From: a virus
Taxonomy: Duplodnaviria; Caudoviricetes
Length of the DNA: 54,242 nt
Virus record (IMG/VR): IMGVR_UViG_3300046835_000018
Location: 1-54,242 of that record
Direction: 5' to 3' (one strand)
In this document: piece after piece, positions 1-11,822 of the stretch
Layout: each line of letters begins with the position of its first letter
Position numbering within the stretch: the first letter of the stretch is position 1
Notes under the pieces: model-generated
The model's input: the letters and a program-made list of their open reading frames with translations, nothing else
What the model was told of the DNA's origin: nothing
Database searches by the model: none
Made by a program: the position numbers and the translations under genes

Positions 1-142
1 TGATCCGGTTTAGACTGGATCATCCCTACGATCCGGAATCGAGACCTCGCTACACAGGTCCGGATCGTCCGATCCACAGCCTCTTTGCTTCCGATCCTGA
101 AGATCTTTTTAGGGGGGGGGGGGGGGTGAAGATGTGGAGGTT
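1..142. repeat. Terminal direct repeat / circular assembly overlap (left copy)
   Basis: 1-142 matches 54099-54242 except for G-tract length (15 G + TG vs 19 G) and one substitution. Confidence 0.9.
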
Positions 143-565
143 CGTGAGGGTTGCCAACCAATCAACCCTTTCGGAAGGAGACAGTCATGTCGAAGAAGAT
201 CGTGATCGAAGAGAGTGACCGTCAGGTCTACCTGGAGGTCCTCCAGACCGTAGTCAACGGAGACGAGTACTCCGCCTACGCGGTCCACACCGTTCTCAAC
301 CAGATCCTGGTCGCGAACGGTCTGGAGAAGGTCCGCCCGCAGATGATGTACAACTACGCGCGGAACGGTCTGATCGTGTCCGGAGAGAAGATCTTCGGCG
401 CGACGCTCCGTACCTTCACTCCGGTGGAGGTCATGGAGTTCCTCATCCGGTACTGCGTCCGGAACGGAATCGAGATCAAGGTAGGACAGCCTACCGACCC
501 GAACCAGGAAGCCCTGTTCGAGATCTAGAAACTGACTGACCCCTCACGAACCTCCTCATGTTCGC
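126..565. repeat. Inverted repeat pair (126-150 / 541-565) bracketing the first gene
   Basis: GGAGGTTCGTGAGGG (136-150) is the exact reverse complement of CCCTCACGAACCTCC (541-555); extends to ~25 bp with 3 mismatches. Confidence 0.85.
187..528 (+). CDS. Putative HTH-type DNA-binding protein
   Basis: ATG after AAGGAG RBS; KVRPQMMYNYARNG segment resembles KVVPPQVVYSYVKNN of 7291-7794. Confidence 0.55.
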   Translation: MSKKIVIEESDRQVYLEVLQTVVNGDEYSAYAVHTVLNQILVANGLEKVRPQMMYNYARNGLIVSGEKIFGATLRTFTPVEVMEFLIRYCVRNGIEIKVGQPTDPNQEALFEI

Positions 566-594
566 CTCTATCCCCTACAGATCGGAGGTACGGC

Positions 595-786
595 ATGATG
601 CCGTACGAATTGAACGCCCGGCACCAACTCGACCGAATCGGAAATTTTGGTTCGGAAAAATGTCCGGGTTGGTTGCTGGATAGACTCGCGGAAGAGAAAC
701 TCTCTGGAGGCTACCTTCCGAAGAGGAATCCAGTGTGTCCGGAGTGTAGGCTCCAGAAAGCGAACTCTGGGGTCTGCGGCTGCTAG
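595..786 (+). CDS. Small Cys-rich (Zn-binding) hypothetical protein
   Basis: GGAGG RBS; CPEC...C.C C-terminus. Confidence 0.6.
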   Translation: MMPYELNARHQLDRIGNFGSEKCPGWLLDRLAEEKLSGGYLPKRNPVCPECRLQKANSGVCGC

Positions 787-1421
787 TTGGGAAGGGTACC
801 CTGGCTCATCCCCAGGGTACCCGACCCACATGCGATCTCCTCCCTGTCCGAGTGGACTAGTTCGGGATTCCCAGACCGGACCCTGAACCGGTCCTACACG
901 AACACGCTAGCCCAAACGTATACTATATTATAATAGGGGGGGGGGCAAAAAATTGGTATAAAGCAGGGGGGTGAAAAACCGACCTGTCCGGGGCGGCCCG
1001 CGTACGGAATTCACGGCTCCCACAGGGCGTGACTTGTGTCTGTTGGTTAGTTTGTTACCAACCGTAACCCACCAGAAAGCCTAACTCTAATAACAACAAG
1101 CCTCTAACGTATAACACGGACAAAACAACTAATTCCTTCTCCTGTTCATTATCCCTTTCATATATTACTAAGTATTCTTATGTGTAGTATATAAAACCAT
1201 AGGAAACAAGCGGTGTAACCAGGAACTGGCGGAGCTAAAAGTGTGAATGGTCAGTGAACTGACACTTGAATTCGCTAGTGGAATTAGCTGAATCCACTAA
1301 ATCGTCACTAGAAACCTTAGAGGATTCAGCTACTTGCACTAACAAGCCACCTGCTGTATACTTAGAGTAGCAAGCAAGCGTGGTATGTAAGTAACCAGGT
1401 AAGTAACCAGGAAGGTAGACA

Positions 1422-1880
1422 ATGACTGTACCAGACAATGAGTGGGTCACAGATGAGGAGCTGGCACGTGTCGCAGCATACGATCCTCCAGTAGATCCCA
1501 ACCTCGCTGCCTTGCGGAAACAAGCAAGCCAGTACTTGAACCCGAGTGAGCCACGTAACGCGCAACCCCGCGTGCAAGGTTTGGCGGGCATTGCTGTGAA
1601 GGCGACCGACAAATACCCGTGGGACAAGTGGATCGACGGCCAGTATCACACGGCTGAGCTCAACAAGGACTTCGCCCTGTCGGTCTCGCGGTTCCAGGTG
1701 CTCTTGCACCGTAAGGCTGCAGACCTCGGAATCTACTGCAGGACCGAGAAGGTGAAGGGTGTCTTTCCTCCCACGGTAGGATTCCTGTTCATGGACGACA
1801 AGATGCGCCTGAACAACGAGTGGATCCGCCTCGCAGGCCTGGAGGTGTGGAAGGAGGACGAAGAAGAGCCCCAAAATTGA
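1422..1880 (+). CDS. Hypothetical protein
   Basis: 152-aa ORF, GGAAGG RBS, phage-like codon usage. Confidence 0.75.
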   Translation: MTVPDNEWVTDEELARVAAYDPPVDPNLAALRKQASQYLNPSEPRNAQPRVQGLAGIAVKATDKYPWDKWIDGQYHTAELNKDFALSVSRFQVLLHRKAADLGIYCRTEKVKGVFPPTVGFLFMDDKMRLNNEWIRLAGLEVWKEDEEEPQN

Positions 1881-1895
1881 CCCATGAAAGACCCC

Positions 1896-1925
1896 TTGCC
1901 CACCTCGCAAGGTCTGAGCTATAAT
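1896..1925 (+). promoter_or_regulatory. Housekeeping-sigma-type promoter
   Basis: TTGCCC-N18-TATAAT upstream of the early gene run. Confidence 0.65.
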
Positions 1926-1993
1926 TAATGTAGCGCCGAAAGTTAAAGTGGCAACAAAGTACCATCACACATCCTCAACGCCTGGAGGTAAAA

Positions 1994-2239
1994 GTGGCAA
2001 TGATCCCAATCGACCTGCGTGACATCGACGCCAGGAGAGAGAAGGATCTCGGATGCATCGACCAAAGAAGTGCGGCGATGATGCAGCCGGGTATCAACAA
2101 AGGCCGCAAGCTGGGGAAGAGGCCGATCTCACGACAAGGGACTCTGAACCAGGGTATCATCGCTCGATCGCCCGGATCTAGGCATCGAGGAATGGACTTC
2201 GTCAAGGCTGTCTATTCCGAGAGGACGGGGCAAGAGTAA
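1994..2239 (+). CDS. Hypothetical protein
   Basis: GGAGG RBS, 81 aa. Confidence 0.6.
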   Translation: MAMIPIDLRDIDARREKDLGCIDQRSAAMMQPGINKGRKLGKRPISRQGTLNQGIIARSPGSRHRGMDFVKAVYSERTGQE

Positions 2240-2245
2240 AAGGTA

Positions 2246-2316
2246 GTCCAAGGGCAGAACACGTCGCTTGAAGAAGCCCCTGTGGGTCTGTGACATCAAA
2301 TGTACCCTTGGACACG
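2246..2316 (+). ncRNA. tRNA-like intergenic element 1
   Basis: GTCCAAGGG/CCCTTGGAC closing stem, ACATCAAATGT T-loop-like hairpin, followed by ACG. Confidence 0.5.
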
Positions 2317-2370
2317 TGGCGAAGGCAAGACACCACATCCCATATCCACCATCACTCCTTAGGAGCGGAA

Positions 2371-2655
2371 ATGGGCAAGCGAATGTATCACCCGGAAGGC
2401 GTGGCAAGCTTAGTAGCCGCCATCTTGTGCACTGGAGACATTGCCAAGCTTCCGACCGATGTGATCCTTCGGGAGAGAAGGGATCTACTGGAGCGAGCGA
2501 TCGACTTCAGGAGAGAACAGATCCTGGAACTAGCCAGGGAGTACTACAAAGTGTACGACCAAGACTACGAGGACAATGTTCCTCTGGTCGAGGTAAGGAA
2601 TGCGGCGAACAACAGGGCCAAGCTCGGGAGGGCGAACCTGATGTTCACTGTATGA
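2371..2655 (+). CDS. Hypothetical protein
   Basis: AGGAG RBS before ATG 2371. Confidence 0.7.
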   Translation: MGKRMYHPEGVASLVAAILCTGDIAKLPTDVILRERRDLLERAIDFRREQILELAREYYKVYDQDYEDNVPLVEVRNAANNRAKLGRANLMFTV

Positions 2656-2659
2656 AGGG

Positions 2660-2706
2660 ATCCCTGGAGCGCGTAAGGCGTAGGTTCGAAGCCACTCCAG
2701 GGAGCG
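2660..2706 (+). ncRNA. tRNA-like intergenic element 2
   Basis: TCCCTGGAG/CTCCAGGGA stem, CGC-GTAA-GGCG hairpin, TAGGTTCGAAGCC T-loop, then GCG and an RBS. Confidence 0.6.
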
Positions 2707-2721
2707 AAAGGAGGTCTCAAA

Positions 2722-2955
2722 ATGAGACTTGCAACACGGACTGTAATCGTAGGCGTTGCCATCCTTGCGGCCCTTGCGGGTTGCGACAGCACTAATGGTG
2801 CAAAGGGAGGTAGCGAATACACCGTCGAGGAGGGCACGTCCATCGACGTCCATGCAGGAGACACCCTCAACATCATCATGAACGGTGGCTTCGAGCGGTG
2901 CGACGATTGGGGTGGTAGCCTACAAGGCAACACCTGCATGGACGTCGACTTCTAA
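2722..2955 (+). CDS. Small lipoprotein
   Basis: Signal peptide with LAALAG-C lipobox; two further Cys. Confidence 0.75.
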   Translation: MRLATRTVIVGVAILAALAGCDSTNGAKGGSEYTVEEGTSIDVHAGDTLNIIMNGGFERCDDWGGSLQGNTCMDVDF

Positions 2956-2974
2956 GGCAGCCCCGAAAGGGGTA

Positions 2975-3022
2975 GGGCTGGCGGCTGAGACACGGCCGTA
3001 GCATCGAAGCGACCAGCCCGCG
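2975..3022 (+). ncRNA. tRNA-like intergenic element 3
   Basis: GGGCTGG/CCAGCCC stem, CGGCTG/CGGCCG hairpin, TAGCATCGAAGC, then GCG. Confidence 0.6.
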
Positions 3023-3051
3023 TCCATCGTCGAGTACTCTAGGAGGTACAA

Positions 3052-3246
3052 ATGGACACCTTCGGTTTTGGGCAGTGGGATGACGACATCCTGAACGACG
3101 AGGAGTTCTTCATCGTGGCGAAGTGGACGGACGGCACTTGGAGACGAGAGCTACCGTACAAGTTCGCCACGCTTGAGCAGGCTACTAACGTGGCCGATCA
3201 GGTAGGAGGAGACGTTGTTAGGGTGAGCGTTACCTACCACCCGTAG
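3052..3246 (+). CDS. Hypothetical protein
   Basis: AGGAGG RBS. Confidence 0.7.
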   Translation: MDTFGFGQWDDDILNDEEFFIVAKWTDGTWRRELPYKFATLEQATNVADQVGGDVVRVSVTYHP

Positions 3247-3252
3247 AAGGTA

Positions 3253-3303
3253 GGTTCAGGGCGAGAAGCTGTCGTGTATGCCATCAAGGCACCCTGAACC
3301 GCG
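3253..3303 (+). ncRNA. tRNA-like intergenic element 4
   Basis: GGTTCAGGG/CCCTGAACC stem, CGA-N7-TCG hairpin, TGCC-ATCAA-GGCA, then GCG. Confidence 0.55.
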
Positions 3304-3323
3304 TTTGACCTAAGGCGCATAGC

Positions 3324-3479
3324 CTTAGGACCTTTATACACCGTTGTGGGTCTAATAGGTTTTAGGGCGGAATAAGCTGTCAGAGCACAGTGACTACACA
3401 CCTGAAACGCTTCCAACCTGGAGCTAAAGGGATTAGACCCACAACGGGATATAGAGGGCCTAGGACCTTCATACACCGT
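3324..3479 (+). ncRNA. Long imperfect hairpin with a downstream competing direct repeat
   Basis: CCGTTGTGGGTCTAAT (~3341-3356) pairs with ATTAGACCCACAACGG (~3433-3448), extendable to ~30 bp; TAGGACCTTYATACACCGT occurs at ~3325 and ~3461. Confidence 0.55.
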
Positions 3480-3527
3480 AAGGGGTTGATGTTAAGGCTG
3501 CGGGGGCCCTACCATCAGGAGGTTGAA

Positions 3528-3698
3528 ATGGTTGCTGACATCGACCGGGAAGAGATGTTCCGTCGTGTTCGTGAGGGTAGCGTGATCGTTGTGCTCGACC
3601 CTCAGGAGTGCGAGACCATGCGGGACATCCTGAGTCGTTTGACGGAAGCCGACCTGAGGCACGAGGACCGCCTTAAGCGGTTCCGGCTCAGTAAGTAA
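3528..3698 (+). CDS. Hypothetical protein
   Basis: AGGAGG RBS before ATG 3528. Confidence 0.65.
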   Translation: MVADIDREEMFRRVREGSVIVVLDPQECETMRDILSRLTEADLRHEDRLKRFRLSK

Positions 3699-3703
3699 GG
3701 TTA

Positions 3704-3769
3704 GAGCTGGTCGGGTATGTGGTCATCAGGACACAAATGGGCCCGTAGCCTCGAAGCAGCCAGCTCGCG
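3704..3769 (+). ncRNA. tRNA-like intergenic element 5
   Basis: GAGCTGG/CCAGCTC stem, CGGGT..GCCCG arm, TAGCCTCGAAGCAG, then GCG. Confidence 0.6.
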
Positions 3770-3799
3770 TACCATCACCAACAAGAAAGGAGTCAAGGT

Positions 3800-4087
3800 A
3801 TGCCTTGGCTTCGGATCGAAGAGAAGGTCACCCTCATCCGCTTTATCGAGGTGGACGAGGCGCACTACCCTGGCATGTCGGTCGCGCAGGCGAAGGAAGC
3901 CGAACTCGACGAGCACGAAGTCGACCGGCTCGAGCAGTTCTCCGAGTCGATGCAGTACGCCGTGCTCGAAGGAGACGCGAACGACTTCATCGACACGACC
4001 GGCAACAGGCCAACATTGACCATGGGCTACGGCATCCAGGTCGATGAGGCCGACGAGGAGTGGTGCAAGAACGCCTTCGGCAAGTAA
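3800..4087 (+). CDS. Acidic hypothetical protein
   Basis: AAGGAG RBS; 95 aa, E/D-rich. Confidence 0.75.
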   Translation: MPWLRIEEKVTLIRFIEVDEAHYPGMSVAQAKEAELDEHEVDRLEQFSESMQYAVLEGDANDFIDTTGNRPTLTMGYGIQVDEADEEWCKNAFGK

Positions 4088-4097
4088 GCACCAAGGA

Positions 4098-4146
4098 GAT
4101 CCCGCCCGAGAAAGTGTCGTGTGCCATCGAGGCAGGCGGGATCGCG
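4098..4146 (+). ncRNA. tRNA-like intergenic element 6
   Basis: GATCCCGCC/GGCGGGATC stem, CGA-N7-TCG hairpin, TGCC-ATCGA-GGCA, then GCG; near-paralog of element 4. Confidence 0.55.
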
Positions 4147-4175
4147 TAAGGTTTCCATCAAGGAAGGGGCCAGAA

Positions 4176-4433
4176 ATGGCTAAGCTCCGAATCACTACCA
4201 CGGTAGTCGTCGTGCGAGAGCTCGAGGAGTACCAGTATCAGGACCTCGCTGAGGTCGGGAAGATGGATGCGGCACAGGCGAAGTTGTTCCTCGAGCGGGA
4301 AGACTTCGACCAGAAGATGGACGATCTCCAGGAGATCATGCCGTACATCAGCTTCCCGAACTACAACGACGGCTTCAATCACCGACGGACGGCCGGCAGC
4401 GGTACGTTCACTGAGGTGATCGAAGCCATCTGA
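4176..4433 (+). CDS. Hypothetical protein
   Basis: AAGGGG RBS before ATG 4176. Confidence 0.7.
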   Translation: MAKLRITTTVVVVRELEEYQYQDLAEVGKMDAAQAKLFLEREDFDQKMDDLQEIMPYISFPNYNDGFNHRRTAGSGTFTEVIEAI

Positions 4434-4440
4434 AACGAGG

Positions 4441-4491
4441 AGGGTTGGTCCGCATGCAACATGGCGGTAGCATCGAAGCAGCCAACCTACG
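4441..4491 (+). ncRNA. tRNA-like intergenic element 7
   Basis: GGTTGG/CCAACC stem, CCGC..GCGG arm, TAGCATCGAAGCAG, then ACG. Confidence 0.6.
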
Positions 4492-4526
4492 CCCTGTGGG
4501 TGTTTGACTAGAAGGAGGGACCCGCA

Positions 4527-4868
4527 GTGACAAAGGCAACAGAGGCAAAGCACAGGTTCGGCTGTCCGAAGTGTGGTGCTCCCGTAGGGGAGTACTGCAT
4601 GTCCAAGGCAGGCAAGACCGTAACCAACGGGCACCTCGATCGGTTGAGGTTGCTCGATGCTGGGCAGGAGGCCTTCAACGAGGTACTCCAGTCCCAGGAT
4701 GTTGTACAGAGCAGCTGGGATGCACAGGTTGACCGGGAGGAGAGGGTTGCCCAGGTTATGTGGGCGATCAACTTCGCACGGACGGCGCTGCTGGTTCCGC
4801 AGGATGTGCTCGATCGCAACCTCGCGGAGATGATCGTCGGCGCCGAGATGGACCTGAAGTTGTTCTAG
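4527..4868 (+). CDS. Zinc-finger domain protein
   Basis: CPKCGAPVGEYC...H.DR motif of the kind common in actinophage small proteins. Confidence 0.7.
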   Translation: MTKATEAKHRFGCPKCGAPVGEYCMSKAGKTVTNGHLDRLRLLDAGQEAFNEVLQSQDVVQSSWDAQVDREERVAQVMWAINFARTALLVPQDVLDRNLAEMIVGAEMDLKLF

Positions 4869-4874
4869 GGTCCA

Positions 4875-4907
4875 GGGTGACGAGCCCTCGAAAGCTCGTC
4901 ACCCGCG
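4875..4907 (+). ncRNA. Hairpin, reduced member of the intergenic family
   Basis: 11-bp stem GGGTGACGAGC/GCTCGTCACCC with CCTCGAAA loop, then GCG and an RBS. Confidence 0.5.
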
Positions 4908-4922
4908 AAAGGAGGTACTACA

Positions 4923-5225
4923 ATGGTACCTGGCAAGGGTCTACACATCGTTCTGAACCAGGAAGGTCTCGACTTCATCGAGGCGTGCCTGGCGGAGATT
5001 CGTCTCGTGTACACCGATGGGGATCACGACGAGAGCCCCAAGGTCGTGCTGGAAGCGCTTCTCGAGAGCGACATGGCCGAGTGGACCGAGGTGAAGGACA
5101 ACTTCGGCCACAAGGTGTTCCGGGGTATGGAGTACAAGGAGGGTGAGCTGCGGGTGACCGTCGTGCTCACCAAGCAGAACGAGCTTCGTCTCGACATCAG
5201 GACGTGGCTCGAGTCGTACTCGTAG
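4923..5225 (+). CDS. Hypothetical protein, possible PC4-like ssDNA-binding C-terminus
   Basis: AGGAGG RBS; C-terminal ELRV...LDIRTW resembles the PC4/YdbC motif. Confidence 0.55.
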   Translation: MVPGKGLHIVLNQEGLDFIEACLAEIRLVYTDGDHDESPKVVLEALLESDMAEWTEVKDNFGHKVFRGMEYKEGELRVTVVLTKQNELRLDIRTWLESYS

Positions 5226-5547
5226 TACTTCGGGCCTTCGCATGCTCTAGGGCATGTGAGGGTCCGTGGTCCTATGATAGGAGATCGCATGCAGAACTGG
5301 GCCGAACAGAGGGAAGACTACTCGATTCAGGAGGAAGTTCTTGTCGACGATGGCGGTCGAGTGCCCACTGTGCGGAGCGAAGCCTGGGAAGAGATGCAGC
5401 GGACGGACCAAGCTGCAACTCCTGCCACTTCCGCATGGGGAGCGACGTATGAAGGCCCTCGGTGCTACATCGGAAAGCACCAAGGGTAAGTAAAAGGTTC
5501 CAGGGCGCAGCTTCAGAGTAGCGGCCCTGGACACGAAAGGAGGTCTT

Positions 5548-5670
5548 ATGCTACCGAAGCGTAAGCCTGGTAAGGCACTGAAGGATGCCATCAAGGCGAC
5601 TGAGCACTGGTGTCCTGACTGTGCGTTGGCGATCATCGACGGGATGGTGTTTCGTGTCGTCGGAACGTAA
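5548..5670 (+). CDS. 40-aa CxxC peptide
   Basis: Strong AAGGAGG RBS; MLPKRKPG...WCPDC... (hand-translated, below the ORF-track cutoff). Confidence 0.55.
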   Translation: MLPKRKPGKALKDAIKATEHWCPDCALAIIDGMVFRVVGT

Positions 5671-5914
5671 GCTGAAGTTCGAGGCATACGAGGGAGCGGC
5701 TACTACAGCGTTCGCTAAGTACCTCGAAGTGCAGAACCGGATCGACAAGATCGAGATCCGGGCTATTGCCAAGTGCTCGGGGAACAAAGGGGTAGCCGCT
5801 TACGAGCTGAAGACCTCCTCCGAGTACTGGATGTACAGGGATCTTTGTGACGATCGTGATCGGTACATGAAGATCGCTAGCCTGAATGCGTCCATGGCGA
5901 ACATGTACAAGTAG
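5654..5914 (+). CDS. Hypothetical protein
   Basis: 3' part of ORF 5585-5914; GTG start after GGGATGG. Confidence 0.6.
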   Translation: MSSERKLKFEAYEGAATTAFAKYLEVQNRIDKIEIRAIAKCSGNKGVAAYELKTSSEYWMYRDLCDDRDRYMKIASLNASMANMYK

Positions 5915-5930
5915 CGAGAAGGTCCCTAGA

Positions 5931-5988
5931 GGTATATCTTGACTTCTAGGGACCCTCTTGTAGTCCAAGGTGGGCCGTGTATTATACT
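5931..5988 (+). promoter_or_regulatory. Promoter with upstream conserved box
   Basis: GGTATATCTTGACTTCT...TTGTAG-N19-TATACT; near copy of 8810-8866. Confidence 0.65.
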
Positions 5989-6289
5989 GGATATATGCAC
6001 ACACTAGAGATGAAGCTAGGGGCCCTGGAAGTGAACTGGATGTTGAACAGGCGGACGCCTTGGTTCAAGAGACAGTTCCGAACACTCGACTTCAGTAAGA
6101 AGCGTCACAACACGCCATATGTGACGACCGCCGGAGCTGCATTGTCGGTCGTCGCTTCTGTTTTGTTGTCCGTGACTCAAGGGTTTTCCATCGAACTCAC
6201 AGGCATCAATCTGGGCTGAGGGCCTGCAAAGACCCACAGGGGCCGCTTTTGGGTTTAGGCGCCTTTAAAAGAGCCCTAGATGAGACCCG

Positions 6290-6320
6290 TTGAAGTCGAA
6301 GAGAGTATCCATGGTATAAT
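6290..6320 (+). promoter_or_regulatory. Promoter
   Basis: TTGAAG-N19-TATAAT immediately upstream of the tRNA-like RNA at 6342. Confidence 0.7.
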
Positions 6321-6341
6321 TAAGATAGAACAGCAAAGCAA

Positions 6342-6467
6342 GGGGTTGTCGCTCAAAGGGCCTTCTCCCCAGCAGGTTCGCGGTAGAGCTGACGTCGCTG
6401 GCCGACCGTTGACGTCGAACAAGTGTCCTAGCACTTGTGTGGAGGTTCGATCCCTCCCAACCCCACG
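6342..6467 (+). ncRNA. Atypical tRNA-like RNA (expanded D-loop, no canonical anticodon loop)
   Basis: GGGGTTG/CAACCCC acceptor, GCTC..GGTAGAGC D-arm, GACGTC/GACGTC arm, ACAAGTG/CACTTGT variable arm, GGAGG-TTCGATC-CCTCC T-arm, 3' ACG. Confidence 0.7.
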
Positions 6468-6494
6468 TATCATCCGGACACACTAGGAGGAATC

Positions 6495-7043
6495 GTGTCT
6501 GAATTGAAGCACATCCCGCTCGGAACGATCTCGTACACTGAGTTCGCTGTGCTCGCACGGCACGCAGTGGAAGAGTCGCAGGAGGAGACGTACGACCAGC
6601 TCCTCGACAGCGGCAGCACCAGTGTTGCCATGGCTGAGACCCTCTTCCAGAGGCTCTCGCAGTTGGTGGAGCGTGCTCGCCTGTATGAGTACGCTCTGAG
6701 CATCCAGGCTCAACGCGAAGAGGAATCCAAGGCTGAACGTCAGGCCAAGATCAAGTCGGACCTCGAGAAGAGGGCCGACGCGATGAGCGACATCTTCAAG
6801 TCGTCACCGGAGAACACCGGCGATGGCACGTTCATCAAGAACCCGAACTACGGTAGCGCCAAGGCGTCGAACCCGACGTTGCTCCAGGAGCACCAGACCG
6901 ACCTGATGTTGGACGGCCTCGACCCGTTCGAGAACACCGCGTTCGACGTTCCCGACACTTCGAAGCCGGCCGGGTGGGCCAACGACGACCATGTGGCACT
7001 CACCGCCGACTTCAGTGACGGGAACAAGAACGAAGCCTTCTAG
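6495..7043 (+). CDS. Hypothetical protein (coiled-coil middle)
   Basis: AGGAGG RBS, GTG start. Confidence 0.75.
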   Translation: MSELKHIPLGTISYTEFAVLARHAVEESQEETYDQLLDSGSTSVAMAETLFQRLSQLVERARLYEYALSIQAQREEESKAERQAKIKSDLEKRADAMSDIFKSSPENTGDGTFIKNPNYGSAKASNPTLLQEHQTDLMLDGLDPFENTAFDVPDTSKPAGWANDDHVALTADFSDGNKNEAF

Positions 7044-7050
7044 TAGCCGC

Positions 7051-7156
7051 TTCACCCTGCTGAAGTAGCTGGTATCACCCGCTCCCGTTAGGGAGACTGC
7101 CTCGATCGACATAGGGCAAAGTCGGAAACGGTGGTTCGAATCCACCCGGGTGAACG
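7051..7156 (+). ncRNA. Atypical tRNA-like RNA with branched anticodon domain
   Basis: TTCACCC/GGGTGAA stem, TGA-AGTAGCTGGTA-TCA D-like arm, GGTGG-TTCGAAT-CCACC T-arm, 3' ACG. Confidence 0.65.
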
Positions 7157-7219
7157 TAAGCGTGTGATCTTGGAACTAGGATGTTGAAAAAAGCCCCAAA
7201 AACATTTTCAAGATCCCGC

Positions 7220-7249
7220 TTGCAGTCGAAAGTAGTCATCCTGTATAAT
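7220..7249 (+). promoter_or_regulatory. Promoter
   Basis: TTGCAG-N18-TATAAT. Confidence 0.7.
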
Positions 7250-7290
7250 TAAAACAAGCCACAAAAAGCTGCGACAACAAGGAGACCAAA

Positions 7291-7794
7291 ATGCAGCCGA
7301 GCACTCCCGACTTCGAAGACGCCGGCACTGAGAACGAGCTGGACCTCGAGGTCAACGACGACGCGAACCTGGACGTGGACATCCCGGCTGACGACGAGAC
7401 GGACGTTCCGGTGAGCGAGGGCGACGAGACCAAGGCGGCCAAGCCGGCCAAGGCCACGCGTCCGAAGGCACCTGAAGGCTTCGTGAAGCCCGTCGAGTTC
7501 GCGAAGATCCTGTCGGCGCACCTGGACAAGGTGGTTCCGCCGCAGGTGGTCTACAGCTACGTCAAGAACAACCAGGGCGACACCGCGAAGAACCCGTTCC
7601 CGGTTCACACCGGCTCGGACGGGTACGAGTGGTACATCAAGCCCGAAGAGGGTCTGAAGTGGTGGGACAACAAGAACGCGCGTGTCACCGCTTCCAAGGC
7701 CGCCAAGGCTGAGAAGGCCGCCAAGAAAGCCAGTGCCGCGGAGGCGACGACCATCGCCGACAGCGAGCCTACGGCGGTAGTCGAAGCCGAGTAA
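7291..7794 (+). CDS. Putative DNA-binding protein (acidic N-terminus, HTH-like core, Ala/Lys-rich tail)
   Basis: AAGGAG RBS; KPVEFAK..PPQVVYSYVKN core; AKAAKAEKAAKKA histone-like tail. Confidence 0.6.
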   Translation: MQPSTPDFEDAGTENELDLEVNDDANLDVDIPADDETDVPVSEGDETKAAKPAKATRPKAPEGFVKPVEFAKILSAHLDKVVPPQVVYSYVKNNQGDTAKNPFPVHTGSDGYEWYIKPEEGLKWWDNKNARVTASKAAKAEKAAKKASAAEATTIADSEPTAVVEAE

Positions 7795-7802
7795 GCTTCA
7801 CC

Positions 7803-7852
7803 GCCCCTGAACAAGCCGTGAGGGTGCCCGATCGAATCGGGCCAGGGGCACG
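7803..7852 (+). ncRNA. Minimal tRNA-like RNA (acceptor + T-arm)
   Basis: GCCCCTG/CAGGGGC acceptor, GCCCG-ATCGAAT-CGGGC T-arm, 3' ACG. Confidence 0.65.
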
Positions 7853-8077
7853 CAAAGCCTCCTATTGAGGCCACCGCAACGCCGAACAGTTTCAACGGCT
7901 TACGCGCGACACGCAAGAGCCACAAGAGGGTCCATCAGGACTCCGGTTGTTGTCGGTGGATAGACGGGAAGCATTGCAGGGAAGGTGTCGGAGAGCGGGG
8001 ACGACTTTTCGACACCTTCCCGAAGAGGCGTCAGTGGTAGGGAGGAGCTGGTGTTCGGGCCAGCCTGACGCCTCGAA

Positions 8078-8168
8078 GGGGAAGGTCATATTGGTGATAA
8101 GCACTACTGGGATGACCGCGCAGGCCTGTTCCAATTTTGCTGCAGGTTCGATTCCTGCCTTCCCCACG
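8078..8168 (+). ncRNA. Atypical tRNA-like RNA
   Basis: GGGGAAG/CTTCCCC acceptor, GCAGG-TTCGATT-CCTGC T-arm, non-canonical middle, 3' ACG. Confidence 0.65.
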
Positions 8169-8277
8169 TGCACAGGTAAGCTGAACACTTCTATTCGACA
8201 GTACCTTTCAGGGACACTCGACCTGGGCGTGTTGCGCGAAACAGCTTACCTGTGCCACTAACTACTTGGAGGGGAAC

Positions 8278-8607
8278 ATGGTCGAAGAGATCACCACTGC
8301 GGATGCCCAGCTCCGTGCCGAGAGGCGCAACAGGGAAGCTGAGGAGGAGCTGGCCCGCAAGCGCAAGGCCATCGAACAGTTCGAGGATCTGACTCAGAGC
8401 CGTGCTGACGGTACGGTAGTCAGGTTCCGCAAGGCGTTCAGCAACGGTGGTACCGCCTACACGTACGCCGCCATCAAGGCGAACGGAGAATGGTACACGA
8501 CAGGCCCTCGAGGCACTGCCTACAGCGATGAGAACTTCTGCCTCTGGCTCGTTTCAGGGCCGGAGATCGCTACGGGCTTCACCATCATGGTGCCGGAAGA
8601 GGGATAA
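8278..8607 (+). CDS. Hypothetical protein
   Basis: GGAGGG RBS; YTYAAIKANGEWYTTG segment. Confidence 0.75.
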   Translation: MVEEITTADAQLRAERRNREAEEELARKRKAIEQFEDLTQSRADGTVVRFRKAFSNGGTAYTYAAIKANGEWYTTGPRGTAYSDENFCLWLVSGPEIATGFTIMVPEEG

Positions 8608-8694
8608 AGCTTCATTGAGGCCCCCGTCTTCGTAGATAACTGCGGAGGCGGGGTGCACCAACGAGAGCGCGGGTGATGGCGCGGCTTTCGGTAG

Positions 8695-8742
8695 AAGAAA
8701 AGGGGTTGGAAAGGCTTCAATGCCTGACCAGCCCCTTTTCTT
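8695..8742 (+). terminator. Intrinsic terminator-like hairpin (possibly bidirectional)
   Basis: AAGAAAAGGGGTTGG...CCAGCCCCTTTTCTT. Confidence 0.6.
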
Positions 8743-8809
8743 GTGCCCAAAGCTATGCGACACAGGCCTAGTTCGGCCCTGTGGGTTTTTGGGAAAGGCA
8801 TTCCCGCTC

Positions 8810-8866
8810 GGTATATCTTGACTTCTTAGTACCTCTTGAAGTCCAATAGCATACCAGGCGTATAAT
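8810..8866 (+). promoter_or_regulatory. Promoter with overlapping inverted repeat
   Basis: TTGAAG-N19-TATAAT; TTGACTTC...GAAGTCCAA quasi-palindrome covers the -35. Confidence 0.7.
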
Positions 8867-8886
8867 AGGATATAGAAAGGGAAAAC

Positions 8887-9102
8887 ATGCCACTGGACTT
8901 TACACCTGATCAGCTGCAACTGCTGACGGAGACACTCGAAGAGGCGGAACAGGACGCACGTGATGTCCTGGATGTCTTGATCGAGAAGGAACAGACGGCT
9001 GAAACCGTGGATGAGTTCCTTGAGTGTACTGCGACGCAGCACGAACGCATCGAAGGACTCAAGAAGCTCCAGGAGATGGTGAAAGAATGTCTGAACAGGT
9101 AG
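8887..9102 (+). CDS. Acidic hypothetical protein
   Basis: AAAGGG RBS, 71 aa. Confidence 0.7.
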   Translation: MPLDFTPDQLQLLTETLEEAEQDARDVLDVLIEKEQTAETVDEFLECTATQHERIEGLKKLQEMVKECLNR

Positions 9103-9497
9103 ACCTTCACGTCATCCCAGCTGTGTTCGAGCATGCTCAGCGGGTGTACAACAAGATGCTCGAAGAGTCCGAGGAAGACAGCGACGGACTGACGGTGTAT
9201 CAGGGGCACTTGACCCGCTTGTTCAAGGACTTGCGGCTGAGTGTCCCTTACTACACTCTGATCAAGAACAAACTGGTCGCCATGGGCTGCATTGAGCAGA
9301 CACGGCGGGGCGGGGGAAATGGAACAAGTCGGTGGGTCCTTTGGCGTGAGCCGATGTTGCCTGCATGGAACGTGGCAGACGCTGCAAGGGCTCGCAAGGG
9401 GAACAAGACGCTACAGCTCGAAGTACGGATCACCGACCTCACACGTCGGATGGCCTTGCTCGAGCAGACCGTCAAGAGGATGCAGGAGGCGATGTGA
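9087..9497 (+). CDS. Putative winged-helix DNA-binding protein
   Basis: LRLSVPYYTLIKNKLVAMGCIEQTRRGG wHTH-like pattern plus C-terminal coiled coil. Confidence 0.55.
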   Translation: MSEQVDLHVIPAVFEHAQRVYNKMLEESEEDSDGLTVYQGHLTRLFKDLRLSVPYYTLIKNKLVAMGCIEQTRRGGGNGTSRWVLWREPMLPAWNVADAARARKGNKTLQLEVRITDLTRRMALLEQTVKRMQEAM

Positions 9498-9811
9498 GCT
9501 TGACAACAATCGAGGTCGCCCGTCGATGCCCCAAGTGTGAACAGCCTGGGGAGAAGGTCGGCGAGCGATCAGTCACAGGAGGACAACGAGGAGCGAAGGT
9601 GCACTTGTTCGAGTGCCGCAACGCTCGCTGTAGGTGGTTCGGGCAGATATGCAGAGCAGTGCAGGTGAACCCCGACGGTACGATTCCGGATCCCGTGATG
9701 AAGCGGGAGAAGCAGTACCCAACAGTACCAGATCGGACCCAGCAAGTGAACGAGATGCTCGAGCGTCAGCTCGCCGCAGAACGCAACGGGTCCGGAGAAG
9801 TAGCAACCTAG
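9494..9811 (+). CDS. Zinc-ribbon protein
   Basis: CPKC...CRNARC; GTG start overlapping the upstream stop. Confidence 0.65.
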   Translation: MSLTTIEVARRCPKCEQPGEKVGERSVTGGQRGAKVHLFECRNARCRWFGQICRAVQVNPDGTIPDPVMKREKQYPTVPDRTQQVNEMLERQLAAERNGSGEVAT

Positions 9812-9904
9812 TAGACTTTCGTTAGACAAATTGGCGCGTCTTTGTAGTGAGGTAGGCTCGTCAGTTTGTCTAACAAGTGTCTAGATAGGTCTGTAAAACG
9901 TCTA
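9812..9904 (+). repeat. 93-bp phased AGAC/GTCT element, copy 1
   Basis: TAGAC 9812, TAGAC 9823, 40-bp spacer, GTCT at 9868/9879/9889/9900. Confidence 0.85.
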
Positions 9905-9930
9905 TAGTAATCCTATACCAAGGGGTTAAA

Positions 9931-10371
9931 GTGAGCAGGGTAGACGAGTTGTACCGGTTGGAATACGAGGCCCTTCAGAGCAAGTGGGAGGAGCTCTTCG
10001 AGAACTGTCCGACCCCTGAGGCTGACGCTATCCTCGATGCTTCACACCCACCGCCTGGTCTTGGTCGAATGATCGCCGAGGTCCAGACGGAGCTGATGGA
10101 GAAGCTCGAAGCTCTGGGTGAAGAGGGCGACGATGATGACACACGTGTCATGCGCTTGTTCACAGCAAGCATGAACGCGCTCTCCTTCATGACTGTACGT
10201 TTCTACCGCCTTGGCGGAGCGATGGCATGGCATATGCCTTACGAGAACATGACGCCATGCAGATGTACTGTCGCGCACGACGAAGAACTAAATGACCTAC
10301 TCAGTGAAGGGTTTCCACTCGACGGGGATGGGTGGGTGATTCAGAACTTCGTACCTAGGAGGGAGTCATGA
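9931..10371 (+). CDS. Hypothetical protein
   Basis: AAGGGG RBS, 146 aa, coupled to the helicase. Confidence 0.75.
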   Translation: MSRVDELYRLEYEALQSKWEELFENCPTPEADAILDASHPPPGLGRMIAEVQTELMEKLEALGEEGDDDDTRVMRLFTASMNALSFMTVRFYRLGGAMAWHMPYENMTPCRCTVAHDEELNDLLSEGFPLDGDGWVIQNFVPRRES

Positions 10372-11822
10372 AGCTTTACCCATTCCAAAAGGAGATGGTC
10401 GACAAGTTCGAGTGTACTCCTGCCGTCCTCTGCGGGGATGACATGGGCGTGGGTAAGACATTCGAAGCACTGGCCCTAGACTTACGTAGGAGAACTACGC
10501 AGCTTAATGGGTACAGGCAAACGGACTGCAAGACACTCATTGTGGCGCCGCTTTCAGTGACGTCGTCGTGGGTTCGTCACGTGCAGACAATTTGGCCAGC
10601 AGCTAAGATCGCTGTGCTGAACCCGAAGAACCGGGACGCTCTCGCCAAGCAGTTGCGAGAGCCTTACCACTACTACGTTGTCCACTGGGAAGCTTTGCGC
10701 CTCATGCCAGAGCTGTACGAAGTGAACTGGTGGCACGTAATCGCCGATGAGGTGCACCGCGCCAAGAACCGTAAGGCGCAGCAAACCATCGGGCTCAAGA
10801 AGTTGAAGACGTCGTACAAGACTGGTCTGTCTGGCACGCCGGCCGACAATCAGCCACAGGATCTCTGGTCAATTCTTCATTGGCTATATCCGAAAGTGTG
10901 GTCTAGTTACCACAGGTTCGTGTACCATCACGTCAAGATCCAGAAGCACCCCGCTGGACAATGTACTGCGTTTGGGTGTGACAAGTACCACAAAAACGCG
11001 TACCAGAAGATCATGGGCGTATCGAATGTAGAAGAGCTGCACAAGAACATACAGCCCTACTACATGCGGCGCACTAAGGAAGAGGTCATCAAGGATCTTC
11101 CTGACAAGTACTTCAGTCAGATCGAAGTCGAGTTGCCGCCGCGTCAGAGGCGGATCTACAACCAGATGAAAGAGTCCATGCTTGCGTGGGTGGGAAAGCA
11201 TGAACAAGAGCCCATCGCAGCGCCCATCATCGTAGCCCAGCTCACACGGTTGAAGCAGTTCGCTCTTGCTTACGCCGAGCTGGAGACCTACTACAAGACG
11301 GACGATCAGGGCGAGAAGGTAGCGTTCCAGCGCGTCAGGCTGACTGATCCATCAACGAAGCTTGATGCGGTAATGGACGTACTCGAAGATTCACTGGAGC
11401 AAGTAGTTGTGTTCAGTGAGTCGAAGCAGATGATCTACCTGCTCAAGGCTCGTCTGGACAAGGCAGGAATCACCTGTGCAACACTGACTGGAGATACTCC
11501 CCACGCAGAACGTGGCAAGATCGTGGATGAGTTCCAGGCAGGCAACATTCGTGTGTTCGCAGGGACAATTGCTGCTGGTGGTGAAGGCATTACGCTGACA
11601 GCAGCAAGCACCGTCATCTTCTTGGACAGAACGTGGAACCCGTCCAAGAACAAGCAGGCAGAAGATCGCCTGCATCGTATCGGACAGAAGAATGCCGTAC
11701 ACGTTATCGACATCGTGGCGAAAGACACAGTCGATGGCGGACGGCTCCAGCAGTTGAAGCTGAAGTGGTCATGGCTGAAGCAGTTGCTGGGTGACAAGAC
11801 AGTGGTGGAGATCGATGCGTAA
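10368..11822 (+). CDS. SNF2-like superfamily 2 helicase
   Basis: DDMGVGKT Walker A, DEVH, SGTP, QAEDRLHRIGQ motifs. Confidence 0.93.
   Translation: MKLYPFQKEMVDKFECTPAVLCGDDMGVGKTFEALALDLRRRTTQLNGYRQTDCKTLIVAPLSVTSSWVRHVQTIWPAAKIAVLNPKNRDALAKQLREPYHYYVVHWEALRLMPELYEVNWWHVIADEVHRAKNRKAQQTIGLKKLKTSYKTGLSGTPADNQPQDLWSILHWLYPKVWSSYHRFVYHHVKIQKHPAGQCTAFGCDKYHKNAYQKIMGVSNVEELHKNIQPYYMRRTKEEVIKDLPDKYFSQIEVELPPRQRRIYNQMKESMLAWVGKHEQEPIAAPIIVAQLTRLKQFALAYAELETYYKTDDQGEKVAFQRVRLTDPSTKLDAVMDVLEDSLEQVVVFSESKQMIYLLKARLDKAGITCATLTGDTPHAERGKIVDEFQAGNIRVFAGTIAAGGEGITLTAASTVIFLDRTWNPSKNKQAEDRLHRIGQKNAVHVIDIVAKDTVDGGRLQQLKLKWSWLKQLLGDKTVVEIDA

What the first reader, a model, noticed from the sequence alone, without database searches (positions are those of the whole stretch)
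2246..5535. Almost every early gene is preceded by a mini tRNA-like three-way junction ending in RCG
Seen at 2246, 2660, 2975, 3253, 3704, 4098 and 4441, with reduced forms at 4875 and ~5499: a 7-10-bp closing stem, a variable hairpin, a conserved T-loop-like unit (TAG[C/G]NTCGAAGC or TGCC-ATCRA-GGCA), then ACG/GCG right after the stem and the next RBS. Stem sequences differ between copies but stay complementary, which argues for selection on RNA (or ssDNA) structure. Established: acceptor + T-arm mini-helices are RNase P/RNase Z substrates. Inference: a tRNA-mimic punctuation system that cuts one early transcript into stabilised monocistronic mRNAs or releases decoy RNAs. Alternatively the folds are attC-like ssDNA cassette sites for gene shuffling. 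I do not recognise this as a described family.
Basis: partly seen in the sequence, partly recalled or inferred. Interest (0 to 1): 0.85.

Follow-up and report, generated by a model that had tools for sequence, protein, structure and literature searches.

The report
tRNA-like punctuation between early phage genes
An uncultured soil phage separates nearly all of its early genes with small RNA folds that imitate the top half of a tRNA, most likely so that host tRNA-trimming enzymes cut the long early transcript into single-gene messages.

Summary
In a ~4-kb early operon of a 54-kb IMG/VR soil phage, 9 of 10 intergenic gaps carry a small fold: a 7-11-bp closing stem beginning with G, usually a variable hairpin, a short hairpin with a U-C-R-A loop stacked on the 3' strand, an unpaired purine, then CG. 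These have canonical T arms, also end in A-CG, and none is a decoding tRNA.

At least four other ~51-55-kb IMG/VR phages have the same elements. In one, 12 of 12 early junctions carry an RNA element. Closing stems differ but stay paired (98% and 94% paired in two alignments; 0 of 500 shuffles each). G-U pairs occur and A-C mismatches do not, so the structure is RNA on the coding strand.

In two sister phages, three equivalent junctions hold hammerhead-ribozyme-like folds instead. That points to intercistronic RNA cleavage.

Best reading (0.55): tRNA-mimic processing signals cut by host RNase P and/or RNase Z (or RNase E at R|C). No RNA data exist, so cleavage is inferred. There is no Rfam match, no GenBank phage relative and no description in nine literature searches. 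This is a new variant of a known kind.

The parts
1896..1925 (+). sigma-70-like promoter (TTGCCC, 18 nt, TATAAT), the likely start of the early operon that carries E1-E9
   Evidence: 10 of 12 consensus matches; function inferred
2246..2316 (+). E1: 9-bp closing stem, 50-nt interior with two hairpins (loop UCAAA), tail ACG; starts 6 nt after the stop of gene 1994-2239
2661..2706 (+). E2: 9-bp closing stem, small hairpin, T-like unit with a UUCGAAG loop, tail GCG, then the RBS directly
2975..3022 (+). E3 (class A): 7-bp closing stem, 6-bp hairpin, T-like unit UAGC-AUCGAA-GCGA, tail GCG
   Evidence: (73 bits with model R1)
3253..3303 (+). E4 (class B): 9-bp closing stem, hairpin, UGCC-AUCAA-GGCA hairpin stacked on the 3' strand, tail GCG
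3704..3769 (+). E5 (class A with a long variable hairpin), tail GCG
   Evidence: (44.1 bits)
4098..4146 (+). E6 (class B): interior nearly identical to E4, closing stem changed in 8 of 9 pairs, tail GCG
   Evidence: (z -2.9)
4442..4491 (+). E7 (class A): first pair is G-U, tail ACG
   Evidence: (72 bits); the minimum-energy fold differs
4875..4907 (+). E8: minimal form, an 11-bp helix capped by a CCUCGAAA loop, tail GCG, then the RBS
   Evidence: (z -3.5)
5232..5265 (+). plain 15-bp hairpin in the one junction without a mini; the same junction holds a hammerhead-like fold in L023 and a class C mini in L018
   Evidence: (z -4.8)
5499..5535 (+). E9 (class C, interior ..CUUCAGAGUAGCG): irregular, tail CACG offset by one base
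   Evidence: its 4 unpaired cells come from the 1-nt offset
5915..5960 (+). strong hairpin at the end of the operon, overlapping the next promoter-like site
   Evidence: z -5.7; role as terminator inferred
6342..6467 (+). 124-nt tRNA-like element: 7-bp acceptor stem, T arm GGAGG-UUCGAUC-CCUCC, A, then CG; no anticodon arm; lies just after a promoter-like site
   Evidence: RF00005 30.2 bits, E 0.002; z -3.1; not called by ARAGORN
7075..7156 (+). tRNA-like element: acceptor stem 7 bp, T arm GGUGG-UUCGAAU-CCACC, A-CG; 11-nt 'anticodon' loop
7803..7852 (+). 50-nt mini with a canonical-length T arm (GCCCG-AUCGAAU-CGGGC), A-CG; 8 nt after the stop of gene 7291-7794
   Evidence: ortholog L008 9386-9435 has a fully compensated stem
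8078..8168 (+). tRNA-like element: acceptor stem GGGGAAG/CUUCCCC, T arm GCAGG-UUCGAUU-CCUGC, A-CG
   Evidence: (tRNA-Sec model 23.8 bits, E 0.18)

Best explanation
The elements are RNA signals on the coding strand that mimic the acceptor-stem/T-arm half of a tRNA (a 'minihelix'). One sits a few nucleotides after the stop codon of almost every early gene.

Proposed mechanism (inferred): the early operon is transcribed as one RNA, and host tRNA-end-processing endonucleases cut at the mimic. RNase P would cut at the conserved A(-1)|G(+1) boundary. RNase Z, or an actinobacterial-type RNase E that cuts 5' of C, would cut after the unpaired purine (R73|C74-G75). Keeping C74 while replacing C75 with G would preserve one RNase P contact and avoid the CCA block on RNase Z.

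The result would be gene-sized mRNAs. A 3' cut leaves the upstream message capped by a stable minihelix, and the downstream message begins 2-3 nt before a very strong Shine-Dalgarno sequence.

The larger tRNA-like elements (6342, 7075, 8078) and the minis would be one functional series. In sister phages, self-cleaving hammerhead ribozymes would do the same job at some junctions.
For: Shown:
(1) Structure with covariation. Twelve class A copies from 5 contigs are 98.3% paired; 10 of 16 pairs change on both sides; 0 of 500 shuffles match; slid controls are 20-49% paired. Six class C/D copies in a plain MAFFT alignment are 94.1% paired; 8 of 12 pairs change on both sides; 0 of 500 shuffles match.
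(2) Non-circular selection. Picking sites only by the 12-nt inner motif gives 15 sites in the window and 7 loci, and 13 of them sit in a closing stem of at least 7 bp.
(3) RNA sense. In the closing helix, 10 of 84 cells are G-U and none is A-C. All copies are co-oriented with the genes.
(4) tRNA-like end features in 40 hand-picked elements: G+1 in 31, A-1 in 30, purine at 73 in 32, C74 in 34, G75 in 32.
(5) Shared tail. Nine of 10 Rfam-tRNA-model hits in this phage group are also followed by CG right after the discriminator.
(6) Orthologous replacement. Window 7803-7852 and L008 9386-9435 share 31 of 33 interior bases, while the stem is fully exchanged. L010 has a 76-nt tRNA-like element at the same site.
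(7) Ribozyme-like folds at equivalent junctions. Three have a complete hammerhead core: L023 3727-3788 and G002 605-669 and 303-360. The L023 copy follows the ortholog of window gene 4923-5225.
(8) In L023, 12 of 12 early junctions hold an RNA element: 11 minis and 1 hammerhead-like fold.

Established knowledge:
- Acceptor-stem/T-stem-loop model hairpins are cleaved by RNase P, which also processes phage M3 and C4 RNAs and some mRNAs (passages of PMC11143913).
- RNase Z cuts 3' of the discriminator and is blocked by CCA, and C74/C75 pair with RNase P RNA (passages of PMC1874595).
- Mycobacterial RNase E cuts RN|CNU (passages of PMC10641625).
- Clustered hammerheads flanking prophage genes were proposed to cut long transcripts into single-gene mRNAs (passages of PMC3088659).
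Against: - No RNA-end data exist, and no cleavage has been shown.
- In most minis the 'T arm' is not canonical: the stem has 2-4 pairs, the loop 5-6 nt, and the position equivalent to U54 is A or C.
- The tail is RCG, not RCCA, and nothing I know explains the conserved G75.
- U at +3, expected for the RNase E motif, is present in only 15 of 40.
- Folding energies of single copies are barely better than shuffles.
- The host is unknown. The actinobacterial guess rests on a 37.5% identical terminase.
- RNase Z is reported to work poorly on substrates with long 5' extensions (PMC1874595 passages).
- An RNase P cut alone would leave the upstream mRNA without a 3' structure.
- L008 uses other hairpin types, without the N-CG tail, at its first junctions.
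- The hammerhead matches score below Rfam's gathering cut-off: 30.4, 27.4 and 23.1 against 37 bits.
- The 40 elements were picked by hand, and about 5 are a base out of register.
Confidence: 0.55

Rival explanations
1. The elements are structure-only mRNA elements with no involvement of tRNA enzymes. They would be 3' stabiliser or insulator hairpins placed just outside the terminating ribosome. They might be combined with a cut by RNase E at R|CG(U) or by RNase III, as at the RNase III sites of the T7 early region (recalled).
For: The elements are anchored 3-10 nt after stop codons in 28 of the 33 cases where a stop was found, while the distance to the next start varies from 15 to 317 nt. The tail R|C-G-(U) resembles the mycobacterial RNase E motif RN|CNU. 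E8 and the class C/D copies are simple hairpins. One junction of the window holds only a plain 15-bp hairpin.
Against: This reading does not explain several features: the conserved U-C-R-A loop; the G+1 and purine-73 preferences; the canonical T and D arms of the larger members in the same positions; or the identical N-CG tail of 9 of 10 tRNA-model hits. U at +3 occurs in only 15 of 40. The helices (6-11 bp closing stems) are shorter than the ~20 bp typical of RNase III sites (length requirement recalled).
Confidence: 0.2
2. The elements are operators for a phage-encoded RNA-binding protein, such as a translational repressor or endonuclease of the T4 RegA/RegB kind (recalled). It would recognise the conserved inner hairpin next to the ribosome-binding sites and shut off or process all early messages together.
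For: The interior sequence is more conserved than the stem: 87.1% against 66.5% mean pairwise identity in class A. In 14 of the 39 elements measured, the next start codon lies 15-20 nt downstream, so the RBS follows almost directly. The early proteins have no known family, so a new RNA-binding protein cannot be excluded.
Against: At least five inner-hairpin classes with different loops (AUCGAA, AUCRA, UCAGAG, GUCGUA, UUCGAAG), plus full tRNA-like members and hammerhead-like folds, occupy equivalent junctions. That argues for recognition of shape or for plain cleavage, not for one sequence-specific protein. No candidate protein was identified.
Confidence: 0.1
3. The elements act at the DNA level, as attC-like or other recombination sites, or as boundary sequences that shuffle early gene cassettes.
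For: Each small promoterless ORF is followed by a structured element. Near-identical class A copies stand next to different genes in different phages.
Against: The stems contain G-T pairs but no A-C mismatch, and all copies are in the transcript sense. The ends are variable and the centre conserved, the opposite of attC. Canonical tRNA arms and hammerhead cores are RNA features. No integrase was found among the 40 ORFs scanned against Pfam; the remaining ORFs were not scanned.
Confidence: 0.04
4. The elements are decaying remnants of a phage tRNA gene array and have no present function.
For: Relatives carry tRNA-like genes that ARAGORN and Rfam still call as tRNA. The series runs from near-tRNA to 33-nt hairpins.
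Against: Pairing is kept through many double changes, and the interior of 7803 is 31 of 33 identical across phages whose flanking protein is only 63% identical. Spacing to the stop codon is regular. An element is present at 9 of 10 and 12 of 12 junctions.
Confidence: 0.03

Closest known systems
tRNA punctuation of mitochondrial polycistronic transcripts, and the tRNA-like 't-elements' of plant mitochondria (recalled; search listings only)
   Same: tRNAs or tRNA-like folds lie between cistrons and are used as cutting marks for RNase P and RNase Z, giving gene-sized mRNAs with minimal leaders.
   Different: Here the genome is a tailed dsDNA phage of bacteria. Most marks are 33-70-nt minihelices with no D or anticodon arm and no decoding role. 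The tail is N-CG. Cleavage is not shown.
Clustered hammerhead ribozymes flanking genes in prophages (Perreault et al. 2011, PMC3088659; passages read)
   Same: Self-cleaving RNAs placed between phage genes were proposed to cut long transcripts into single-gene mRNAs. Three hammerhead-like folds sit at equivalent junctions of two sister phages.
   Different: The window itself has no hammerhead (best match 9.3 bits). Its junctions use folds that cannot cut themselves and would need a host enzyme.
Non-tRNA substrates of RNase P: acceptor/T-arm model hairpins, phage P1/P7 C4 antisense RNA precursor, phage M3 RNA, some polycistronic mRNAs (review PMC11143913; passages read)
   Same: An acceptor-like stem stacked on a T-like stem-loop is sufficient for RNase P. 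There is precedent for phage transcripts being processed through a tRNA-like fold.
   Different: Those are single sites carrying 3' RCCA. Here there is a repeated series at nearly every junction of an operon, with RCG.
RNase III processing sites between the early genes of phage T7 (recalled)
   Same: One early polycistronic transcript, a structured element in each intergenic gap, a host endonuclease, and processed mRNAs that keep a 3' hairpin.
   Different: T7 sites are long irregular double helices for RNase III. These elements are 11-13 stacked pairs with a T-loop-like cap and tRNA-like ends.
tRNA-like modules without an anticodon: the tmRNA tRNA-like domain and bacterial YrlA/Y RNAs (recalled)
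   Same: Acceptor and T arm (sometimes D arm) are kept and the anticodon arm is lost, as in elements 6342, 7075 and 8078 and those of the relatives.
   Different: No Rfam hit to tmRNA or Y RNA-like models at E up to 10. The elements are embedded in mRNA operons and there is no tag reading frame.

Membership tests
tRNA (Rfam RF00005, ARAGORN) | Cloverleaf with D arm, anticodon arm with a 7-nt loop, and T arm | tested here: not met
   ARAGORN finds 0 genes in the window. No RF00005 hit over E1-E9 or 7803 at E up to 10. Only 6342-6465 reaches 30.2 bits, through its acceptor and T arm alone, with 74 nt unaligned in the middle.
Acceptor-stem/T-arm minihelix (model substrate of RNase P, RNase Z, CCA-adding enzyme) | Acceptor-like stem of about 7 bp beginning with G1 | tested here: met
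   Closing stems are 6-11 bp; G+1 in 31 of 40, C72 in 29 of 40.
Acceptor-stem/T-arm minihelix (model substrate of RNase P, RNase Z, CCA-adding enzyme) | T stem (5 bp) with a 7-nt UUCRANN loop stacked directly on the 3' strand, about 12 bp in all | tested here: inconclusive
   Met in 6342, 7075, 8078 and (with A at the first loop position) 7803. In E1-E9 the hairpin has 2-4 pairs and a 5-8-nt loop with a U-C-R-A core. By my reading the stacked length is 11-13 pairs.
Acceptor-stem/T-arm minihelix (model substrate of RNase P, RNase Z, CCA-adding enzyme) | Unpaired discriminator followed by CCA | tested here: not met
   A purine discriminator is present in 32 of 40, but the tail is C-G (C74 in 34 of 40, G75 in 32 of 40). 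This is compatible with CCA-less precursors, which RNase P and RNase Z do process (PMC1874595 passages).
Acceptor-stem/T-arm minihelix (model substrate of RNase P, RNase Z, CCA-adding enzyme) | Cleavage by RNase P at -1/+1 or by RNase Z after position 73 | not testable with these tools
   No RNA run holds the sequence.
Hammerhead ribozyme type II (RF02276), for the elements in sister phages | Core CUGANGA, GAAA, cleavage triplet UH, three stems with stem II open | tested here: met
   Alignment to the model and direct reading of G002. All three copies have the full core and a 4-bp stem II.
Hammerhead ribozyme type II (RF02276), for the elements in sister phages | Score above Rfam's gathering cut-off (37 bits); self-cleavage | tested here: not met
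   30.4, 27.4 and 23.1 bits. The control genomes also give sub-threshold matches. Self-cleavage is not testable here.
Integron attC site | Conserved terminal core sites with a variable centre, folding as single-stranded DNA | tested here: not met
   Ends are 66.5% and centre 87.1% identical among class A copies. Ten G-T cells and no A-C cell in the closing helix. The GTTRRRY core motif itself was not searched for.
RNase III processing site (T7 early type) | Roughly two turns of double helix (requirement recalled) | tested here: not met
   Closing stems are 6-11 bp and are interrupted by a junction.
Intrinsic terminator | GC-rich hairpin followed by a U tract | tested here: not met
   None of the + strand terminator-like sites coincides with an element. 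The tails are RCG followed mostly by purines. Mycobacterial RNA polymerase is reported to need the U tract (PMC3993855; title and start of abstract only).

The most novel reading that the evidence does not exclude
A lineage of soil phages has evolved a tRNA-punctuation system of its own. Stripped-down acceptor/T-arm mimics at every early gene junction would recruit the host's RNase P and RNase Z to cut and cap early mRNAs, interchangeably with hammerhead ribozymes. This would be the first case of organelle-style tRNA punctuation in a bacterial virus. The minihelices released in bulk early in infection might additionally compete for host tRNA-end enzymes or for tRNA-targeting defences.
Probability: 0.4. 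Interest if true: 0.85.

Novelty: new variant of a known kind. Interest (0 to 1): 0.72.

Why it matters
If the cuts are confirmed, this would show that bacterial viruses, like mitochondria, can use tRNA shape as punctuation for polycistronic RNA. It would also show that a 33-50-nt minihelix is enough in nature.

It would give a natural series, from near-tRNA to bare hairpin, for asking what RNase P and RNase Z minimally require in vivo.

It would link two ways of reaching the same end in sister genomes: cutting in trans through tRNA mimicry, and cutting in cis through hammerheads. It would also offer compact, host-powered insulators for operon design in bacteria.

Finally, it flags an uncultured phage group whose early genes have no match in Pfam (apart from one zinc-finger domain) or in PHROGs, and whose expression logic differs from model phages.

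Tried and rejected
- RNA evidence: no RNA holder is listed for 1900-8300. Contigs of four other soil DNA runs were laid on the region and were identical to it, so they gave no natural variants for covariation.
- Rfam: 0 hits at gathering thresholds. Nothing overlaps E1-E9 at E up to 10.
- GenBank phages: no DNA match to 1-12000. No homolog of protein 7291-7794. Element E7 gave only chance-level 24-30-nt matches inside genes of unrelated phages.
- SNF2 helicase as bait found one distant contig (L002) with tightly packed genes, which I did not examine for elements. The PolA bait gave fragments that I did not use.
- MAFFT alignments of all minis together (A1-A3) were out of structural register and were not used for counts.
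- Model R1 is specific to class A and does not find classes B-E. I did not build a general model.
- The pattern scan of viral contigs gave 19 stretches. Two lie in the records already held as L008 and L009. Of the other 17, only L018, L023 and L026 had convincing full elements with R1 (E of 1e-5 or better); the other 14 gave no match better than E 0.03.
- The pattern scan of bacterial genomes gave 2 hits in planctomycete MAG contigs. One had only a partial R1 match. The other looks embedded in GC-rich coding-like sequence. I treat both as chance, so they give no host clue.
- A hairpin at 43758-43785 (- strand) that fits the descriptor lies inside a coding frame.
- My automatic gene caller masked several elements with spurious ORFs, so I used hand-set windows instead.
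- The most conserved early protein (4923-5225) gave no lead in Pfam, PHROGs or the ESM Atlas.
- Supplements of the papers cited were not seen.

Full report
WHAT THE WINDOW IS. The window is a whole IMG/VR virus record: 54,242 bp, linear, estimated 85% complete. Replication genes lie on the + strand (about 1-29 kb) and structural genes on the - strand. They include an SNF2 helicase, a PD-(D/E)XK nuclease, a DUF3987 primase-helicase, a UDG-PolA fusion, QueC/QueD/QueE-like/FolE, a tape measure, a Mu-type portal and a terminase. The nearest cultured phage by terminase is an Arthrobacter phage at 37.5% identity. There is no DNA match in GenBank phages. The sequence recurs, letter for letter, in contigs of other soil DNA runs.

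THE OBSERVATION. A sigma-70-like promoter at 1896-1925 is followed by about twelve small ORFs and by a strong hairpin at 5915-5960. By my gene model, 9 of the 10 intergenic gaps in between hold an element.

The common plan is:
- a purine-rich 5' flank ending in A;
- a closing stem of 7-11 bp that starts with G;
- usually a variable hairpin;
- a short hairpin with a loop core U-C-R-A, stacked on the 3' strand of the closing stem;
- one unpaired purine;
- then C-G.

E8 is the bare core, an 11-bp helix with a CCUCGAAA loop. E9 is irregular. A structural descriptor gives 8 sense hits in the operon against 0.46 in shuffles (0 of 500 reach 8) and 1 antisense hit. Folding energy alone is weak evidence: z ranges from -0.8 to -3.5, and the minimum-energy fold of E7 is a different fold.

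The same scan found 7075-7156 and 7803-7852. Reading on, I found 8078-8168, and Rfam at relaxed thresholds found 6342-6465 (tRNA model, 30.2 bits, E 0.002). These four have a 7-bp acceptor stem and a canonical-length T arm with loops UUCGAUC, UUCGAAU, AUCGAAU and UUCGAUU, then A, then C-G. None has a usable anticodon arm, and ARAGORN calls no tRNA in the window. The genome therefore holds a graded series, from tRNA-like (124, 82 and 91 nt) through a 50-nt mini with a true T arm down to 33-nt hairpins. All members share the same ends.

RELATIVES AND COVARIATION.
- Finding relatives. The protein of gene 7291-7794 found three IMG/VR contigs (L008/L009, which appear to be the same phage, and L010) at 63-67% identity. 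They are syntenic with the window. A degenerate pattern for the class A inner hairpin found three more phages of 51-55 kb (L018, L023, L026).
- L023. Here 12 of 12 early junctions carry an RNA element.
- Classes. By inner hairpin I distinguish: A (YAGC-AUCGAA-GCRR, after a variable hairpin), B (UGCC-AUCRA-GGCA), C (..CUCAGAG..), D (GUCAGC-AUCGAA-GYAGCG, without a variable hairpin) and E (GGCC-GUCGUA-GGC).
- Class A counts. Twelve class A copies aligned to a covariance model are 98.3% paired. Ten of 16 pairs have changes on both sides, 0 of 500 shuffles match, and slid controls are 20-49% paired. That alignment was fitted to the model, so I added two checks.
- Check one. Sites chosen only by the 12-nt inner motif number 15 in the window plus seven loci on both strands, and 13 of them sit in a closing stem of at least 7 bp. 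The two exceptions are on the antisense strand.
- Check two. A plain MAFFT alignment of six class C/D copies is 94.1% paired. Eight of 12 pairs change on both sides and 0 of 500 shuffles match. All four unpaired cells belong to E9, which is one base out of register.
- Sequence conservation. Among class A copies the closing stem is 66.5% identical and the inner hairpin 87.1%.
- Clearest single case. Window 7803-7852 and L008 9386-9435 share 31 of 33 interior bases, while the stem changes from GCCCCUG/CAGGGGC to GGAUCCG/CGGAUCC. At the same site L010 has a 76-nt tRNA-like element that ARAGORN calls tRNA-Leu.
- RNA or DNA. The closing helix has 10 G-U cells and no A-C cell out of 84, which points to RNA of the coding strand, not DNA.

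ANATOMY OF THE FLANKS. I hand-picked 40 elements in the window and five relatives; about five are a base out of register. Among them, A(-1) occurs in 30, G(+1) in 31, a purine at 73 in 32, C74 in 34, G75 in 32 and U76 in 15. The gap from the upstream stop codon to the stem has a median of 6 nt and is 3-10 nt in 28 of the 33 cases where a stop was found. The distance to the next start codon ranges from 15 to 317 nt. The elements are therefore tied to the end of the upstream gene, about where the mRNA leaves a terminating ribosome. In roughly a third of cases a very strong RBS ((G)AAAGGAGG) also follows at once. Nine of the 10 matches to the Rfam tRNA model in this phage group are followed by C-G right after the discriminator. 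Minis and tRNA-like elements thus share their 3' context.

HAMMERHEADS IN THE SAME SLOTS. An Rfam scan of the relatives gave a type II hammerhead match at L023 3727-3788: 30.4 bits against a gathering score of 37, with E 0.028 in a 46-kb search. A search of the five sister records gave two more in G002 at 27.4 and 23.1 bits. Read directly, all three have the full core (CUGAnGA, GAAA, GUC or GUA), a 4-bp open stem II and closed stems I and III. All three lie between two small ORFs just upstream of an RBS.

The L023 copy follows the ortholog of window gene 4923-5225 (50% identity). At that junction the window has the plain 15-bp hairpin and L018 has a class C mini. The window itself has no hammerhead. 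Perreault et al. 2011 (passages) described clustered hammerheads flanking prophage genes and proposed that they cut long transcripts into single-gene mRNAs.

MECHANISM. Several things are shown: a conserved RNA structure with tRNA-like ends, its position at gene ends, its interchange with fuller tRNA-like elements, and the presence of ribozyme-like folds at equivalent junctions. The rest is inferred. In this reading the elements are cutting marks, and because they cannot cut themselves the cut is made by host enzymes that recognise tRNA shape.

RNase P cleaves acceptor/T-arm model hairpins and some phage RNAs and mRNAs (PMC11143913 passages). RNase Z cuts after the discriminator, is blocked by CCA and prefers short 5' leaders, so RNase P is thought to act first (PMC1874595 passages). 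R-C-G keeps C74, which pairs with RNase P RNA, and breaks the CCA block. This rationalisation is mine. Mycobacterial RNase E cuts 5' of C in RN|CNU (PMC10641625 passages). In an actinobacterial host it could make the same 3' cut, but only 15 of 40 tails have U at +3.

A 3' cut would leave the upstream mRNA capped by a minihelix, and the downstream mRNA would start 2-3 nt before a strong Shine-Dalgarno sequence. An RNase P cut would leave the mimic as a paired 5' end on the downstream mRNA. Which cuts occur cannot be told from sequence.

RIVALS. I considered five: structure-only stabiliser or insulator hairpins with an RNase E or III cut (0.2); operators for an unknown phage RNA-binding protein (0.1); DNA-level recombination sites (0.04); decaying tRNA genes (0.03); and intrinsic terminators, which I rejected because no U tract follows any element.

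COMPARISON AND NOVELTY. The closest known systems are:
- organellar tRNA punctuation and plant mitochondrial t-elements (recalled);
- prophage hammerhead clusters;
- single tRNA-like RNase P sites in phage RNAs;
- the T7 early RNase III sites (recalled).

I found no description of repeated tRNA-mimic minihelices between phage genes. From them I saw listings, starts of abstracts and the passages named above. Subscription journals and supplements were not covered. The minis have no Rfam family. I rate this a new variant of a known kind.

LIMITS. There are no RNA data. The host is unknown. The element list was curated by hand. The descriptor was written after seeing the data, and it replicates in L023 but not in L008. 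The hammerhead scores are below Rfam's cut-off. The conserved G75 is unexplained.

Noticed in passing
window, 13 sites (for example 2278-2286, 4492-4500, 8777-8785 on +; 1019-1027, 6233-6241, 46658-46666 on -): The 9-mer CCCTGTGGG occurs 13 times on both strands against 0.46 expected (0 of 100 shuffles). Several copies lie in intergenic regions, one lies inside E1, and similar copies are seen in the relatives. It could be a protein-binding or modification site, or a mini-hairpin before U runs.
   Followed up: partly
window 6290-6320, 7220-7249, 8836-8866 (and a variant near 5947-5978): A conserved promoter-like motif TTGNAGTC, about 16-19 nt, TATAAT. There are 3 exact matches to AGTC-N14-20-TATAAT against 0.18 expected. 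The same motif heads short operons in L008, L010, L023 and L026. It may define a second (middle?) promoter class distinct from the one at 1896-1925.
   Followed up: partly
window 19510-22974: QueC, a QueD-type PTPS, a radical-SAM QueE-like protein and GTP cyclohydrolase I lie together. This is a 7-deazaguanine synthesis set and suggests modified DNA bases in this phage.
   Followed up: no
window 3304-3527: A 224-nt non-coding stretch follows E4. It has a 12-bp inverted repeat (3345-3356 with 3432-3443) and two near-identical direct repeats. L023 has a comparable long structured gap after its third element. It may be a small RNA or a regulatory region.
   Followed up: no
window 112-127 and 936-945: There are long G runs (about 17 and 10 G) in the left-end non-coding region. 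They may be real or an assembly artefact.
   Followed up: no
L008 3229-4007: The first early junctions of this sister phage use another design: a 10-13-bp hairpin with a loop containing CAUCA(G). At the first two junctions a second hairpin with a loop UCRCGGGGU follows it. The N-CG tail is absent. The string CAUCAGGACAC also appears inside window E5 and inside an L008 tRNA-like element.
   Followed up: no
L008 10918-11014: This is a tRNA-like element (RF00005, 51 bits) with an acceptor stem GGGGAUG/CAUCUCC. It has a G3-U70 pair with A73, which I recall as the alanine identity mark, also used by tmRNA. Its middle part is aberrant.
   Followed up: no
window 8617-8745: Three consecutive very stable hairpins follow gene 8278-8607 (-82 kcal/mol, z -10.5), just before the promoter-like site at 8836. 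They are probably a strong terminator region.
   Followed up: no
window 24167-26551: A family A DNA polymerase carries an N-terminal uracil-DNA-glycosylase-superfamily domain in one 794-aa ORF.
   Followed up: no
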